64,000 nucleotides of DNA from a virus: positions 1 through 64,000 of the IMG/VR virus record IMGVR_UViG_3300023181_000004; one strand, written 5' to 3'. The translations under genes were made by a program, and so were the position numbers. Positions within the stretch are counted from its first letter, which is position 1. Every line of letters starts with the position of its first letter. The notes beneath the pieces were generated by a model, which was given only the letters and a program-made list of their open reading frames with translations, was not told the DNA's origin and made no database searches. This document shows, piece by piece, positions 31,705 through 47,513 of this stretch.

Positions 31705-32196
31705 ATGTTCCTCTACTGGCTTCCTTTCCAGCGTCGCTACGTGCATCGCCTCTCCGACATCCCCAAGGGCGTCGAGAGCGAACGCATCGACGTCCCCACG
31801 GACACCACCGGGCTGATGGCCTACCTCAACGACCTTACTCAACGGCAGGACGTTGCTCATGTCGATCCGCAACCCGATGGCACCGTTCGTGTCGTTGATG
31901 ACGTCGGTGCCGAGTTTGTAGGCGACCGCAAGGCGGTTATCGAATGGCTGAACGCTGGATTGGACGAGGAAGACGTTCCCGATCGGGAACATTCCGATCC
32001 TAAACCCCCGCCTCCGCCCCCGATTGTTCCCGATCGGGAACGTCCGATGGACGCAGGAGCGATCCTGTCCCGCATCGATAGCCCTGGCGTCAACGTCGAG
32101 GGCGTGGTCGAGGCGATCGGCAAGGCCAAGGGCTATGCACTGCGGCGCTATGCCGGCGCGGTCGCTGTCCGTTTTCAAGAACTCGAAAAGATCTAG
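31705..32196 (+). CDS. hypothetical protein
   Basis: open frame within the operon. Confidence 0.6.
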   Translation: MFLYWLPFQRRYVHRLSDIPKGVESERIDVPTDTTGLMAYLNDLTQRQDVAHVDPQPDGTVRVVDDVGAEFVGDRKAVIEWLNAGLDEEDVPDREHSDPKPPPPPPIVPDRERPMDAGAILSRIDSPGVNVEGVVEAIGKAKGYALRRYAGAVAVRFQELEKI

Positions 32197-32259
32197 AACT
32201 CCAAATTCCTCGAAAAAATTTTGCGGGGATTTTGGACTTTTTCAACAGGAGGGAAAGTT

Positions 32260-32514
32260 ATGCCGAACTTTAAGTTCAGTTTCGCGCGAGACTACACCAT
32301 CCGCGAAGGTTTCGAGCGTGTCATCGAAGCAGATACGCTTGAGAAAGCACAAGAGATCGCTAATCGCTTGGCCGAAGAGTTCAATCACGATTGTCCGGAC
32401 GATTGTTCGGAGTCGGACGGTGGTGAAGGCGGGGATTTTGAAACGTCCTGTCCGCCGTCGTATCAAAATATCAACGAGAAGCCGGACTATAACTCCGAAG
32501 GAGAAGAGCTGTGA
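32260..32514 (+). CDS. small acidic hypothetical protein
   Basis: AGGAGG RBS; Asp/Glu-rich. Confidence 0.6.
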   Translation: MPNFKFSFARDYTIREGFERVIEADTLEKAQEIANRLAEEFNHDCPDDCSESDGGEGGDFETSCPPSYQNINEKPDYNSEGEEL

Positions 32515-33659
32515 CCATCGCATTTGAACTCGTCCGCGACGACAGCGTGGATGTCTATGCCGGGCCAGTGCTTTACAAGCTCGACAGCCTTGGCAAGCTG
32601 CGGACGTGGCAAATGGAGCTGACAGGCCTCGGTCACTACCGCACCCTCGCCGGCCTCGCCGACGGCAAGCAGGCCACCAGCGGCTGGACGATCCCCATCG
32701 CCAAGAGCTGCCCGACCGTGAAGGACCAGGGCGAGTTCGAGGTGCGCAGCCAGTACAAGCACCAGCTCGACCGCGAATATCATCTGACCGCCGACACTGT
32801 CGGTACGCCCAAGATGATCGAGCCAATGCTCGCCAAGACCTACGACAAATTCCCCGGCCCCGGCACCCTCGATCCCAAGTTCGACGGCATCCGCTGCATC
32901 GCCGACGTGAACGGCCTGTGGACCCGTCAGGGGCAGCCAATCACCGCCGTGCCGCATCTACACGCCGTGCTGGCCGCCGCGTTCGAGAAATATCCGGACG
33001 CGATCTTCGACGGTGAGCTGTATAACCACGACCTGCGCGAGGACTTCGGCGCGATCAGCTCGATCGTCCGCAAGAAGAACCCGACGGTCGAGCAGCTGGA
33101 GCTGGCCGAGAAGGTCATGCAATACCACATCTACGATCTGGTGAGCGGCACGGGCGACCGTAGCGAACGCAAGCGGCAGGCGTGGGACATTCTGCATGAC
33201 ACCGACGTGCCGCTCGGCTGGATCCACATCGTCATGGGCAAGCGGATCGAGAGCGAGGTACAGCTCAAGCAAGAATATGGCGAGGCGATCGGTAACGGCT
33301 ACGAGGGCGGCATTTTCGCGCCGGATGGCTACAAATATGAGCTGGGCCGGCGATCGAAGGGCCTGCTCAAGATGAAGGACTTCATCACCAAGGAGTTCAA
33401 GCTCCTACGTCTCGAAGAGGGCAAGGGCAACTGGGCCGGTGCGATCAAGCGTGCGATCCTGCAGAACGACGAGGGCGAGTGCGGTGAGTTCGGCGCCGGC
33501 ATCCGCGGCAGCTATGCAGCGGGTGTGGCGCTGCTTGGTGAAACGGCTCGGATCAACGAGAAGTCCACGGCCACCGTGCGCTTCTTCATGCGGTCCCCGG
33601 ATGGCGTGCCGCGGTTCCCCGTGGTGGTCGACATTCAGCTGGACGGACGGGTCGACTAA
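32511..33659 (+). CDS. ATP-dependent DNA ligase
   Basis: PMLA, PKFDGIRC (motif I), FDGELY, YEGGI, LLKMK, PRFP. Confidence 0.93.
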   Translation: MTIAFELVRDDSVDVYAGPVLYKLDSLGKLRTWQMELTGLGHYRTLAGLADGKQATSGWTIPIAKSCPTVKDQGEFEVRSQYKHQLDREYHLTADTVGTPKMIEPMLAKTYDKFPGPGTLDPKFDGIRCIADVNGLWTRQGQPITAVPHLHAVLAAAFEKYPDAIFDGELYNHDLREDFGAISSIVRKKNPTVEQLELAEKVMQYHIYDLVSGTGDRSERKRQAWDILHDTDVPLGWIHIVMGKRIESEVQLKQEYGEAIGNGYEGGIFAPDGYKYELGRRSKGLLKMKDFITKEFKLLRLEEGKGNWAGAIKRAILQNDEGECGEFGAGIRGSYAAGVALLGETARINEKSTATVRFFMRSPDGVPRFPVVVDIQLDGRVD

Positions 33660-46643: not shown

Positions 46644-47027
46644 ATGATGGATGTTCTAGATAAACCGCCGGGCACCGCCGGGCCTCCGACGCTCCCGCCC
46701 TTCCTACGCAAGCGCGGCGGAGGCGGCCGACCAAAGTGGGTGATCTTGCCGGATCTCATGCTTGCTGAGCAGGCCACGACCCTCTTGGATCGGGAACATA
46801 ACTGGATCACTCTGGCCTATCGCTGGATGATCCGGCTCAATACGGAGACGTGGGAGGGCGAGCGTGCCTTCGTCCACACTCGCGTCTACCGGCAGTGGCT
46901 GGAGACCTACGAGGCCAAGGATGGCCTGCCGCCGCACATCTGCTTCGGCGGTGCCATCGAGGCTCGCGATGCCGATTTAACGTTCTATCCACGGTGGGTA
47001 GAATATGCGAAGGAGACGTTCTGCTAA
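46644..47027 (+). CDS. hypothetical protein
   Basis: AAGGAG RBS. Confidence 0.6.
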   Translation: MMDVLDKPPGTAGPPTLPPFLRKRGGGGRPKWVILPDLMLAEQATTLLDREHNWITLAYRWMIRLNTETWEGERAFVHTRVYRQWLETYEAKDGLPPHICFGGAIEARDADLTFYPRWVEYAKETFC

Positions 47028-47033
47028 TCGGCA

Positions 47034-47062
47034 TTGACAGGTTCGTTCGGAGTTCCTAGATC
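47034..47062 (+). promoter_or_regulatory. sigma70-type promoter for tmRNA
   Basis: TTGACA-17 bp-TAGATC directly upstream of the acceptor piece. Confidence 0.7.
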
Positions 47063-47064
47063 AC

Positions 47065-47332
47065 GCATCCGGCCTCGGCCGGGCTGCTGGAGAACACGCG
47101 GGGGGCAGTACCTCGCCGCCTCCACCATAGCCAGTGCCTTGGCACCCCTGCTTTAACGTGACGTCCGAGGGGAGTTGAGGAGCGCACACTGGCTTTGATG
47201 GGGGCGAAATAGGATCGACTCTCCGTGCGGTAGAATGTAAATGCGAATGACAATGGTGAGGCCGTGAGCCTCCGACTGGCAGCGTAACTGCACAGGGGCC
47301 TGACCGAGAGCCTGGCAACATAATCTCGGTCA
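47065..47332 (+). ncRNA. ssrA: two-piece (circularly permuted) tmRNA, alphaproteobacterial type
   Basis: acceptor piece ends CGCCTCC-A-CCA (47117-47127); coding piece starts GGGGGCGAAATAGGATCGAC (47200) giving a 7-bp acceptor stem with G3-U70; tag ANDNGEAVSLRLAA-stop at 47243-47287; terminal hairpin with CCTGGCAACA loop. Confidence 0.92.
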
Positions 47333-47338
47333 CCTTAT

Positions 47339-47412
47339 GGGAGCGTAGCTCAGTTGGTAGAGCATGGCACGTCAAAAGGCTCTGGTCGAAGGTTCGAGTC
47401 CTTCCGCTCCCC
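47339..47412 (+). tRNA. tRNA-like RNA / pseudo-tRNA with unpaired anticodon arm
   Basis: perfect acceptor GGGAGCG/CGCTCCC, D arm GCTC-AGTTGGTA-GAGC, T arm GAAGG-TTCGAGT-CCTTC; anticodon stem cannot form; no in-register CCA. Confidence 0.7.
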
Positions 47413-47435: not shown

Positions 47436-47513
47436 TATAATGGAGGTTTGCATGAAGTGATCAGGTCTGTAGAAGGACCACTCTACCAACCCAAAACGAA
47501 CTGGAACTATAAC

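What the first reader, a model, noticed from the sequence alone, without database searches (positions are those of the whole stretch)
47034..47332. Phage-encoded circularly permuted tmRNA, apparently minimised and lacking pseudoknot 1
Seen: TTGACA-17-TAGATC promoter; acceptor piece with T-arm-like GCGGGG-GGCAGTA-CCTCGC region and CGCCTCC-A-CCA end (47127); a 72-nt intervening segment closed by AGCCAGTG/CACTGGCT; coding piece from GGGGGCG (47200) forming the G3-U70 alanine stem. TCTCCG/TGGAGA pairing joins the pieces; TAAAT precedes the tag ANDNGEAVSLRLAA-stop; a 9-bp terminal hairpin has a CCTGGCAACA loop. Known: two-piece tmRNAs with ANDN...AA tags are characteristic of alphaproteobacteria. 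Unusual: only 23 nt separate ATCGAC from the resume codon and about half of them form the joining helix, leaving no room for pk1. The coding piece is about 133 nt versus roughly 200 in cellular alpha versions. Inference: a streamlined viral trans-translation RNA or SmpB sponge. It is invisible to the ORF track.
Basis: partly seen in the sequence, partly recalled or inferred. Interest (0 to 1): 0.9.

Follow-up and report, generated by a model that had tools for sequence, protein, structure and literature searches.

The report
Phage two-piece tmRNA without pseudoknot 1
A complete 83-kb phage genome carries its own back-to-front ("two-piece") gene for tmRNA, the RNA that frees stalled ribosomes, in a stripped-down form that lacks a pseudoknot nearly all cellular tmRNAs keep and that standard gene finders miss.

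Summary
Window 47030-47332 (+) matches Rfam alpha_tmRNA at 53 bits, just over the cut-off of 50. The record is a complete phage genome: 83,296 bp with terminal repeats and head, portal and terminase genes. Three related viral contigs carry the same gene at the same place.

All four copies have only 23-25 nt between the tRNA-like domain and the resume codon: an 11-bp helix 2, then an 11-12-nt linker, with no room for pseudoknot 1. Helices are backed by compensatory changes. The 14-codon tag keeps its ANDN start and AA-stop end through mostly synonymous changes. I therefore favour a working tagger that uses host SmpB over a mere SmpB sponge; function is inferred, not shown.

In a sample of 401 alphaproteobacterial genomes, none of 401 had a spacing of 49 nt or less, and 192 of 401 had the long form.

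Phage two-piece tmRNAs are already published (PMC9004378). This scan had already noted pk1-less ones in aquatic phages, so this is a new variant in a second phage lineage. ARAGORN misses it.

The parts
47034..47062 (+). Promoter: -35 TTGACA (47034-47039), 17-nt spacer, -10 TAGATC (47057-47062)
   Evidence: Read directly. The TTGnnn-17-TAGAT[CG] layout is kept in all 4 related copies (invariant CCTAGAT block). The E. coli-type scan does not flag it because it requires T at the last -10 position. A -10 without that T is common in alphaproteobacteria (PMC7703639, abstract in the listing). The transcription start is not mapped.
47069..47082 (+). 5' hairpin of the acceptor piece (CCGGC-CUCG-GCCGG), abutting helix 2
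   Evidence: RNAcofold. The three relatives have 7-8-bp hairpins of different sequence with tetraloops at the same place (sequences). It corresponds to the hairpin at positions 40-53 of the Rfam model.
47083..47093 (+). Helix 2 (P2), acceptor-piece strand GCUGC-UGGAGA
   Evidence: Pairs with 47220-47231. There are 11 pairs, 95.5% of cells are paired, and 3 pairs change on both sides across 4 sequences. Duplex energies are -15.9 to -20.3 kcal/mol.
47098..47116 (+). T-arm: 6-bp stem and 7-nt loop GGCAGUA
   Evidence: helix 2 of the count: 100% paired, 1 compensatory pair.
47117..47127 (+). Acceptor-stem 3' strand CGCCUCC, discriminator A, encoded CCA
   Evidence: Pairs with 47200-47206 over 7 bp, including the G3:U wobble. 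It is 100% paired in 4 sequences with 1 compensatory pair.
47128..47199 (+). Intervening segment (72 nt), predicted to be excised; closed by the 8-bp helix AGCCAGUG/CACUGGCU
   Evidence: Precursor folds stack this helix on the acceptor stem in all 4 copies. The segment is 72, 82, 140 or 45 nt long, and the closing helices have entirely different sequences. Excision is inferred from the Caulobacter precedent and is not shown here.
47200..47219 (+). Start of the coding piece: acceptor 5' strand GGGGGCG and conserved loop AAAUAGGAUCGAC
   Evidence: Near-invariant in the 4 copies. It is the motif shared by at least 120 viral contigs and by cellular alpha tmRNAs.
47220..47231 (+). Helix 2 (P2), coding-piece strand UCUCCG-U-GCGGU
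47232..47242 (+). Single-stranded 11-nt linker AGAAUGUAAAU, occupying the place of pk1 plus its linker; A at -4
   Evidence: The linker is 11-12 nt, not conserved and not self-complementary in the 4 copies, and A at -4 is kept in 4 of 4. In E. coli an 11-nt linker follows pk1 and A86 (position -4) is essential (PMC2481249, passages).
47243..47287 (+). Tag reading frame GCG...TAA encoding ANDNGEAVSLRLAA
   Evidence: There are 14 codons plus a stop in all 4 copies. At codons 1-4 and 12-15 the pairwise comparisons give 24 identical, 21 synonymous and 3 non-synonymous.
47279..47291 (+). Helix 5-like hairpin GCAG-CGUAA-CUGC with the stop codon in its loop
   Evidence: window and L125. Support across the 4 copies is weaker: 80% of cells paired.
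47296..47332 (+). 3'-terminal hairpin (9 bp, loop with CCUGGCAACA), probably an H-type pseudoknot (GGGC 47296-47299 with GCCU 47310-47313)
   Evidence: Hairpin: 5 of 9 pairs have compensatory changes. Pseudoknot stem: only 62.5% paired on the MAFFT alignment. By eye, L124 has CGGU/ACCG one column off, so the pseudoknot is tentative. The loop motif matches the end of the Rfam model.
47339..47412 (+). Adjacent tRNA-like gene, 6 nt after the tmRNA; its 5' processing could define the tmRNA 3' end. Probably not part of the tmRNA itself
   Evidence: ARAGORN calls tRNA-Leu(CAA) and Rfam tRNA scores 52 bits. It is absent from the 3 related copies.

Best explanation
This is a genuine two-piece (circularly permuted) tmRNA gene of the alphaproteobacterial type, carried by a lytic-type siphophage distantly related to Caulobacter phage Seuss.

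Inferred pathway:
1. Host RNA polymerase transcribes it from its own promoter.
2. Host tRNA-processing enzymes cut at G47200 and expose the CCA at 47127, removing the 72-nt intervening segment.
3. The two pieces stay together through the 7-bp acceptor stem and an 11-bp helix 2.
4. Host alanyl-tRNA synthetase charges the RNA through the G3:U pair.
5. Host SmpB (the phage has none) and EF-Tu bring it to stalled ribosomes.
6. Translation resumes at GCG 47243 and adds ANDNGEAVSLRLAA, a tag whose conserved ends fit degradation by the host protease system.

Compared with cellular alpha tmRNAs, it has lost pseudoknot 1, about half of helix 2 and the region after the stop codon. The resume codon therefore sits 11 nt after helix 2.

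Shown here: the gene, its architecture, its conservation and covariation, and its phage location. Inferred: transcription, processing, charging, tagging and the benefit to the phage. The benefit is most likely keeping ribosome rescue running while infection floods the cell with broken mRNAs.
For: - Family match: Rfam RF01849 at 53 bits over all model positions 1-355.
- Phage location: complete phage genome; closest cultured relative by DNA polymerase is Caulobacter phage Seuss at 41%.
- Conservation: the same gene lies between the helicase and the exonuclease/polymerase genes in 3 of 5 viral relatives found with the helicase. All 3 at 79-80% identity have it; the 2 at 58-64% do not.
- Structure: 41 pairs are 88.5% paired against 37-46% when slid, 11 pairs change on both sides, and 0 of 500 shuffles reach this.
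- tRNA-like domain: the G3:U pair, discriminator A, CCA, T-loop and the AAAUAGGAUCGAC loop are invariant or nearly so.
- Tag: 14 codons in 4 of 4 copies. At the conserved ends, 21 of 24 pairwise codon differences are synonymous. In the middle, 35 of 37 are non-synonymous.
- Frame-setting base: A at -4 in 4 of 4 copies. The equivalent A86 is essential in E. coli (PMC2481249).
- Precedent for life without pk1: engineered E. coli tmRNAs with pk1 reduced to a hairpin or replaced by single-stranded RNA still tag (PMC4236655, passages).
- Not an integration remnant: no integrase (PF00589) in the genome.
Against: - No expression, processing, charging or tagging data exist. No RNA run holding this stretch was listed.
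- Detection is marginal: RF01849 is only 3 bits over its cut-off, RF04321 is below its cut-off, and ARAGORN finds nothing.
- The minimum-energy folds of two of the four copies (L124, L126) do not give the comparative structure.
- Chimera work in E. coli shows that the helix 2 / pk1 / linker segment is under poorly understood constraints (PMC4236655). A tmRNA with half a helix 2 and no pk1 might therefore tag poorly.
- No SmpB is encoded, the host is unknown, and Seuss and Lumi, the cultured relatives, lack the gene (0 of 2).
- Four sequences are a small basis for covariation.
Confidence: 0.62

Rival explanations
1. SmpB sponge or decoy. The RNA binds host SmpB (and perhaps AlaRS and EF-Tu) through its intact tRNA-like domain but cannot deliver its reading frame, because helix 2 is halved and pk1 is gone. 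It would then damp host trans-translation instead of performing it.
For: A phage tmRNA reduced to the tRNA-like domain is known (mycobacteriophage DS6A), and such a molecule inhibits tmRNA in E. coli (PMC4131195 and PMC11915505, passages). The phage encodes no SmpB, so it must draw on the host pool. The segment linking the tRNA-like domain to the reading frame is sensitive to changes in E. coli chimeras (PMC4236655).
Against: A sponge does not need a reading frame. Yet the frame is 14 codons in 4 of 4 copies, and its ends are kept through 21 synonymous against 3 non-synonymous pairwise differences. A at -4 is kept in 4 of 4. The stop-codon hairpin and the 3' element are also retained.
Confidence: 0.17
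2. Decaying passenger. A host ssrA gene was captured recently and is now eroding by deletion, without function in the phage.
For: The gene has a patchy distribution. It is absent from the two more distant viral relatives and from Seuss and Lumi. Its low Rfam score is due to large deletions.
Against: Four phages with only about 80% helicase identity keep the same architecture, with compensatory changes in helix 2, the terminal hairpin and the helix closing the intervening segment. They also keep a conserved promoter and an intact tag frame. Random decay would not preserve these.
Confidence: 0.08
3. Integration-site remnant. The sequence is the piece of ssrA that temperate phages carry in attP so as to rebuild the host gene after integration.
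For: tmRNA genes are common integration sites, and phages carry fragments of them (PMC4383910 abstract in the listing; PMC9004378, passages).
Against: The whole gene is present: both pieces, a promoter and an intervening segment, not a 3' fragment. No tyrosine integrase was found in the complete genome. The architecture differs from every cellular form sampled, so it could not rebuild a host gene.
Confidence: 0.03

Closest known systems
Cellular two-piece tmRNA of Alphaproteobacteria (Caulobacter type; Rfam RF01849; Keiler et al. 2000, recalled and seen only as a reference)
   Same: The gene order is the same: acceptor piece, intervening segment, coding piece. So are the G3:U acceptor stem, encoded CCA, GGCRGUA T-loop, AAAUAGGAUCGAC loop, 5' hairpin of the acceptor piece, an ANDN...AA tag and the 3' element with a CCUGGCAACAGAA-type loop.
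   Different: The spacing from the tRNA-like domain to the resume codon is 23 nt, against 60-66 nt in 4 cellular examples and 50-80 nt in 192 of 401 sampled genomes. There is no pk1. Helix 2 is 11 bp against 18 modelled pairs. About 42 model positions after the stop codon are missing. The coding piece is 133 nt against about 210-230 nt. The Rfam score is 53 bits against 217-315 bits.
Published phage two-piece tmRNAs: OM43 phage Melnitz and pelagimyophages (Buchholz et al. 2022, PMC9004378; passages read)
   Same: These are also phage-borne, alpha-type permuted ssrA genes with their own promoters. That paper counted 53 two-piece forms among 133 unique phage tmRNAs, using ARAGORN.
   Different: They are marine T4-like myophages with a glutamine riboswitch nearby. 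The passages I read make no statement on pk1. The present phage is a 60% GC Seuss-like siphophage, and ARAGORN does not find its gene. I could not see that paper's Table S1, which may list short forms.
AT-rich short forms in IMG/VR viral contigs (L021, L063, L077, L078, L103, L104, L109, L115), noted earlier in this scan (e1-5764980, e1-5736723, e1-5836657)
   Same: The overall design is the same: a spacing of 27-28 nt, helix 2 followed by a linker of about 9-10 nt, no pk1 and an ANDN...AA tag.
   Different: The helix 2 sequences are unrelated and AT-rich, and there helix 2 uses the very 5' end of the acceptor piece. The T-loop is mostly GGCGGUA and the phage background differs. Whether the two short lineages share an origin or converged is open.
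TLD-only tmRNA of mycobacteriophage DS6A (PMC4131195, PMC11915505; passages)
   Same: It is a phage-borne, drastically reduced tmRNA.
   Different: DS6A keeps little more than the tRNA-like domain and has no tag frame. Here the frame is intact and conserved.
Engineered E. coli tmRNAs with pk1 replaced (work cited in PMC2481249 and PMC4236655; passages)
   Same: pk1 is removed while the 11-nt linker and the A at -4 are kept. Those constructs still tag.
   Different: They are laboratory constructs in a one-piece tmRNA with a full-length helix 2. Here the loss is natural and comes with a halved helix 2.

Membership tests
Two-piece (permuted) alphaproteobacterial tmRNA, RF01849 | Gene order: acceptor piece (T-arm, acceptor 3' strand, CCA) upstream of the coding piece (acceptor 5' strand, tag frame), with an intervening segment between them | tested here: met
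   same order in 3 relatives.
Two-piece (permuted) alphaproteobacterial tmRNA, RF01849 | A 7-bp acceptor stem with the G3:U70 alanine identity pair, discriminator A and a CCA end | tested here: met
   Seven of 7 pairs are present in 4 of 4 sequences, and the U:G pair is invariant (helix 3).
Two-piece (permuted) alphaproteobacterial tmRNA, RF01849 | T-arm with a GGCRGUA loop, and the conserved AAAUAGGAUCGAC loop of the tRNA-like domain | tested here: met
Two-piece (permuted) alphaproteobacterial tmRNA, RF01849 | Helix 2 joining the two pieces | tested here: met
   Present with covariation, but only 11 bp against 18 modelled pairs.
Two-piece (permuted) alphaproteobacterial tmRNA, RF01849 | Pseudoknot 1 between helix 2 and the resume codon | tested here: not met
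   Only 11-12 unpaired, non-conserved nucleotides lie there in 4 of 4 copies. The Rfam alignment deletes the pk1 region.
Two-piece (permuted) alphaproteobacterial tmRNA, RF01849 | Tag frame starting at GCN, ANDN head, AA-stop end, A at -4 | tested here: met
Two-piece (permuted) alphaproteobacterial tmRNA, RF01849 | Score at or above the curated Rfam cut-off | tested here: met
   RF01849 scores 53 against 50, which is marginal. The general model RF04321 scores 35.3 against 47 and is not met in the window, though it is met in the 3 relatives at 51-66 bits.
Two-piece (permuted) alphaproteobacterial tmRNA, RF01849 | Processing into two stable RNAs, alanylation, SmpB binding and tagging | not testable with these tools
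   No RNA holder of the stretch was listed. The phage genome has no SmpB.
TLD-only phage tmRNA decoy (DS6A type) | No tag reading frame | tested here: not met
   The frame is present and conserved.
ssrA fragment in a phage attachment site | Partial 3' copy of the host gene next to an integrase | tested here: not met
   The gene is full-length, and PF00589 has no match at E <= 0.01 in the complete genome.

The most novel reading that the evidence does not exclude
Phages have produced, possibly more than once, a natural minimal tmRNA that cells do not use. It consists of the tRNA-like domain, one turn of helix 2, an 11-nt linker, the tag frame and a single 3' pseudoknot. It is fully active in ribosome rescue. 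It is favoured in phages because it is small, quickly made, and escapes host controls on tmRNA level, or outcompetes host tmRNA for SmpB so that the phage sets the tag. If so, pk1 and most of helix 2 are dispensable in nature, not only in engineered E. coli constructs.
Probability: 0.3. Interest if true: 0.65.

Novelty: new variant of a known kind. Interest (0 to 1): 0.45.

Why it matters
pk1 is the pseudoknot nearly all tmRNAs keep. Burks et al. 2005 (PMC1168896, passages) list only Oenococcus oeni, a partial plastid sequence and mitochondria as lacking it. Its role has been argued from mutants alone.

A conserved natural lineage without pk1 and with half a helix 2, confined in my sample to phages, would give the field a natural minimal substrate for structural and kinetic work. 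It would also raise the question of why phages, but not cells, tolerate or prefer it.

There is a practical point too. ARAGORN called 3 of 12 short-form loci and gave all three the wrong tag, against 53 of 74 long-form loci called. Published counts of phage tmRNAs based on ARAGORN therefore probably undercount this class.

Tried and rejected
- ARAGORN, through the tool and as v1.2.41 with -m and -ps on the whole genome, found no tmRNA. I treat this as a detector limit, not as evidence against the gene.
- An exact 26-nt search of viral contigs found nothing. A looser 20-nt motif found at least 120 contigs.
- My one scan of genome contigs used too loose a pattern. All 120 hits lacked the tRNA-like-domain motif, so they were chance matches. 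I replaced it with pattern searches of a 401-genome sample.
- That sample has a gap: 209 of 401 genomes matched neither the short nor the long pattern (incomplete genomes or divergent motifs). So 'not found in those searched' is all that can be said.
- G244 and G044 are flagged unpublished.
- blastn of the locus against cultured phages hit only tRNA genes. Seuss and Lumi have no RF01849 match.
- Sequencing runs: no RNA holder was listed. Only the probable source run, a leaf-litter metagenome, holds the whole stretch. Other runs held short tRNA-like or tRNA-like-domain pieces or bits of the downstream ORF. This says nothing about expression.
- The E. coli-type promoter scan does not flag the proposed promoter and finds no + strand terminator after the gene.
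- A pairing of the acceptor-piece leader CGCAU with AUGCG across the resume codon appears in the window's minimum-energy fold but is not conserved in relatives, so I rejected it.
- I did not build a covariance model, because the alignment has 428 columns and the limit is 400.
- Print searches: 'two-piece tmRNA' + 'phage' gave 18 papers. 'tmRNA' + 'PK1' + 'phage' gave 14. 'tmRNA' + 'pseudoknot 1' + 'hairpin' + 'replaced' gave 5.
- None of those listings, and none of the passages I read from six papers, describes a pk1-less phage tmRNA. Supplements, such as Table S1 of PMC9004378, were closed and may list some.
Full report
**What is there.** Window 47030-47332 (+) reads as a complete circularly permuted tmRNA gene. 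Its parts, in order:
- A promoter-like TTGACA-17-TAGATC (47034-47062).
- An acceptor piece ending in CGCCUCC-A-CCA at 47127.
- A 72-nt intervening segment (47128-47199).
- A 133-nt coding piece from GGGGGCG at 47200 to the end of a 9-bp hairpin at 47332.

Rfam's alpha_tmRNA model (RF01849) matches the whole stretch end to end at 53 bits (cut-off 50), E 6.5e-12 for the window. The newer general model tmRNA_permuted (RF04321) reaches only 35.3 bits against a cut-off of 47. ARAGORN finds no tmRNA, either through the tool or as v1.2.41 with -m and -ps on the whole genome.

**It is in a phage.** The window is the first 64 kb of an IMG/VR virus record of 83,296 bp with direct terminal repeats, rated 100% complete, at 60.4% G+C.
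- PHROGs profiles identify major head protein, portal, large terminase, primase, RIIA and ribonucleotide reductase.
- Around the RNA gene they identify a helicase, an HNH endonuclease, a 5'-3' exonuclease and a DNA polymerase.
- The polymerase is 41% identical to that of Caulobacter phage Seuss and 38-39% to those of Xylophilus phage Lumi and Achromobacter phage JWF.
- No tyrosine integrase and no SmpB are encoded.

**Relatives.** The helicase found five related viral loci.
- The three closest (79-80% identity: L124, L125 on the same contig as L029, L126) carry a tmRNA at the same place, with RF01849 at 67-73 bits and RF04321 at 51-66 bits.
- The two more distant loci (64% and 58%) have no match at E <= 0.01.
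- Seuss and Lumi have none at E <= 1 (0 of 2).
So the gene belongs to a sub-clade of these phages.

**Architecture.** In all four copies the distance from ...GGAUCGAC to the resume codon is 23-25 nt.
- RNAcofold of the two predicted mature pieces gives the expected structure for the window and L125. The elements are a 5' hairpin, helix 2 of 6 bp + 1-nt bulge + 5 bp, a T-arm with loop GGCAGUA, and a 7-bp acceptor stem with G3:U. A hairpin with the stop codon in its loop and the terminal hairpin complete it.
- For L124 and L126 the minimum-energy fold differs, but the same helices can be drawn. RNAduplex gives helix 2 at -15.9 to -20.3 kcal/mol in all four.
- I mapped 41 pairs onto the MAFFT alignment A1. 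They are 88.5% standard pairs against 37-46% when partners are slid by 1-3 columns. Eleven pairs change on both sides, and 0 of 500 column shuffles reach the observed values.
- Per helix: helix 2 is 95.5% paired with three compensatory pairs, and the T-arm and acceptor stem are 100% paired. In the terminal hairpin 5 of 9 pairs are compensatory.
- With only four sequences this is modest but consistent.
- The helix that closes the intervening segment has a wholly different sequence in each phage (segments of 72, 82, 140 and 45 nt). It stacks on the acceptor stem in each precursor fold.
- After helix 2 come 11-12 unpaired, A/U-rich, non-conserved nucleotides and then the resume codon. There is no sequence from which pk1 could be made. 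The Rfam alignment accordingly deletes the distal half of helix 2, the pk1 region and about 42 positions after the stop codon.
- The 3' hairpin probably forms the small pseudoknot seen in cellular forms (GGGC with GCCU in the loop). On the automatic alignment that stem is only 62.5% paired, so I call it tentative.

**Is the short form found in cells?** Four cellular alphaproteobacterial tmRNAs (Sphingobium, Novosphingobium, Mesorhizobium, a Hyphomonadaceae genome) score 217-315 bits. Their spacings are 60-66 nt and their coding pieces about 210-230 nt. I then searched a sample of 401 genomes of the class.
- A pattern requiring the tRNA-like-domain motif, 12-42 nt and GCNAAYGAYAA matched 0 of 401.
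- The same pattern with 50-80 nt matched 192 of 401, all showing the conserved pk1 sequence.
- A looser pattern with 12-49 nt again matched 0 of 401.

The 209 genomes that matched neither pattern are a gap: many are small or incomplete, or may have divergent motifs. The statement is therefore 'not found in those searched'. Two genomes flagged unpublished (G244, G044) are among the 192, and nothing depends on them. My single scan of all species genomes was wasted on too loose a pattern.

**The short form is common in viral contigs.** Of these, 104 loci had enough flank and a recognisable tag.
- 74 loci have a spacing above 50 nt.
- 18 loci have 31-50 nt.
- 12 loci (11 contigs) have 30 nt or less.

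The shortest class is the present clade plus an AT-rich group: L021, L063, L077, L078, L103, L104, L109 and L115. In that group helix 2 pairs the coding piece with the very 5' end of the acceptor piece. Earlier notes of this scan describe that aquatic group as a virus-only, pk1-less sub-lineage (e1-5764980, e1-5736723, e1-5836657). My counts agree.

ARAGORN called 3 of the 12 shortest loci, each with a wrong tag. It called 8 of 18 intermediate and 53 of 74 long ones.

**Does it work as a tmRNA?** This is inference. The tRNA-like domain is intact and almost invariant. The tag frame is 14 codons plus a stop in all four copies: ANDNGEAVSLRLAA, ANDNDSQVAYALAA, ANDNSEVYHLRLAA and ANDNDTSEVYARAA.
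- At codons 1-4 and 12-15, pairwise comparisons give 24 identical, 21 synonymous and 3 non-synonymous.
- At codons 5-11 they give 5, 2 and 35.

That pattern is what selection on the peptide's two recognition ends would produce, and a pure SmpB decoy has no need for it.

A at -4 is kept in 4 of 4 copies. In E. coli the equivalent A86 is the key frame-setting base, and the neighbouring U85 tolerates C or G. The linker between pk1 and the resume codon is 11 nt there (Miller et al. 2008, PMC2481249, passages), which is the length found here after helix 2.

Engineered E. coli tmRNAs with pk1 reduced to a hairpin or replaced by single-stranded RNA still tag. Swaps of helix 2b-2d together with pk1 can abolish tagging, however (Wower et al. 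2014, PMC4236655, passages). Activity of this natural form is therefore plausible but not assured.

That the ANDN head and AA end serve an SspB-type adaptor and ClpXP is recalled from the Caulobacter literature and was not tested here.

**Promoter.** TTGnnn-17-TAGAT[CG] is kept in all four copies. The E. coli-type scan ignores it because the -10 ends in C or G. An abstract seen in a search listing reports that -10 elements without that T are the rule in alphaproteobacteria (PMC7703639). Together with the alpha-type RNA and the distant kinship to a Caulobacter phage, this points to an alphaproteobacterial host. The host is not established, and published work shows that a phage's tmRNA type need not match its host (PMC9004378).

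**What is known.**
- Two-piece tmRNAs in phages are published. Buchholz et al. 2022 describe the gene in phage Melnitz. Using ARAGORN on 18,146 phage genomes, they counted 402 phages with 133 unique tmRNAs, 53 of them two-piece (PMC9004378, passages).
- A phage tmRNA reduced to the tRNA-like domain (DS6A) is also known (PMC4131195 and PMC11915505, passages).
- Burks et al. 2005 found pk1 in nearly all tmRNAs. The exceptions were Oenococcus oeni and a partial plastid sequence (both without helix 4) and mitochondria (PMC1168896, passages).
- I found no paper describing pk1-less phage tmRNAs in three full-text searches. I read only passages of six papers, and supplements were closed.

**Verdict.** This is a new variant of a known kind. 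It is a second, high-GC siphophage lineage of the minimal, pk1-less, alpha-type two-piece tmRNA that this scan had already met in aquatic phages, here with helix 2 cut to one turn. It is worth a specialist's attention as a natural minimal tmRNA and as an annotation blind spot, but it is not the near-unique object the first score implied.

Noticed in passing
window 47339-47412 (+): A tRNA-like gene lies 6 nt after the tmRNA. ARAGORN calls it tRNA-Leu(CAA) with score 110.6, and Rfam tRNA gives 52 bits. The anticodon stem has only 3 of 5 pairs (C.C and A.G mismatches). The variable arm is short and the discriminator is C, which does not fit a bacterial tRNA-Leu (my knowledge). It is absent from the 3 related phages. 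An earlier first-stage note (e1-6132262) calls it an anticodon-less tRNA mimic.
   Followed up: partly
window 47443-47479 (+); same place in L124, L125, L126: Downstream of the tmRNA (and of the tRNA in the window) lies a conserved GGAGGTTTGCATGA block. It is followed by a hairpin with a GUAGA-containing loop (window GGUC-UGUAGAAG-GACC, 47464-47479). The stem differs in sequence but still pairs in all 4 phages (read by eye). In three relatives the ATG opens a 6-codon mini-frame. In the window that frame has TGA at codon 3. Function unknown.
   Followed up: no
L253 1294-1684 (Rhodobacter phage RcSimone-Hastad, MW677525.1, about 32147-32537, minus strand of the record): A cultured Rhodobacter capsulatus phage carries an unannotated long-form two-piece tmRNA gene between the HIRAN-domain and topoisomerase genes. 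RF04321 scores 108.7 bits and RF01849 scores 97.7 bits. The tag is ANDNVRMDAQALAA and, by my count, the spacing is about 65 nt. It could serve as a culturable system for phage alpha-type tmRNAs.
   Followed up: partly
viral loci L004-L128: ARAGORN 1.2.41 of 74 long-form, 8 of 18 intermediate and 3 of 12 short-form alpha-type tmRNAs in viral contigs, and gives all 3 short ones a wrong tag. An intermediate class with spacing of about 43-47 nt (for example L039, L117, L017) seems to keep a full helix 2 but also lacks room for pk1.
   Followed up: partly
window 46977-47004 (+): A second promoter-like site, TTAACG-16-TAGAAT, lies inside the end of the upstream ORF, about 30 nt before the proposed tmRNA promoter.
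   Followed up: no
L250, L251 (cellular Novosphingobium and Sphingobium tmRNAs): These sphingomonad tmRNAs end with two tandem copies of the GGGCAACAGAA-loop element, where the phage and the Mesorhizobium forms have one.
   Followed up: no
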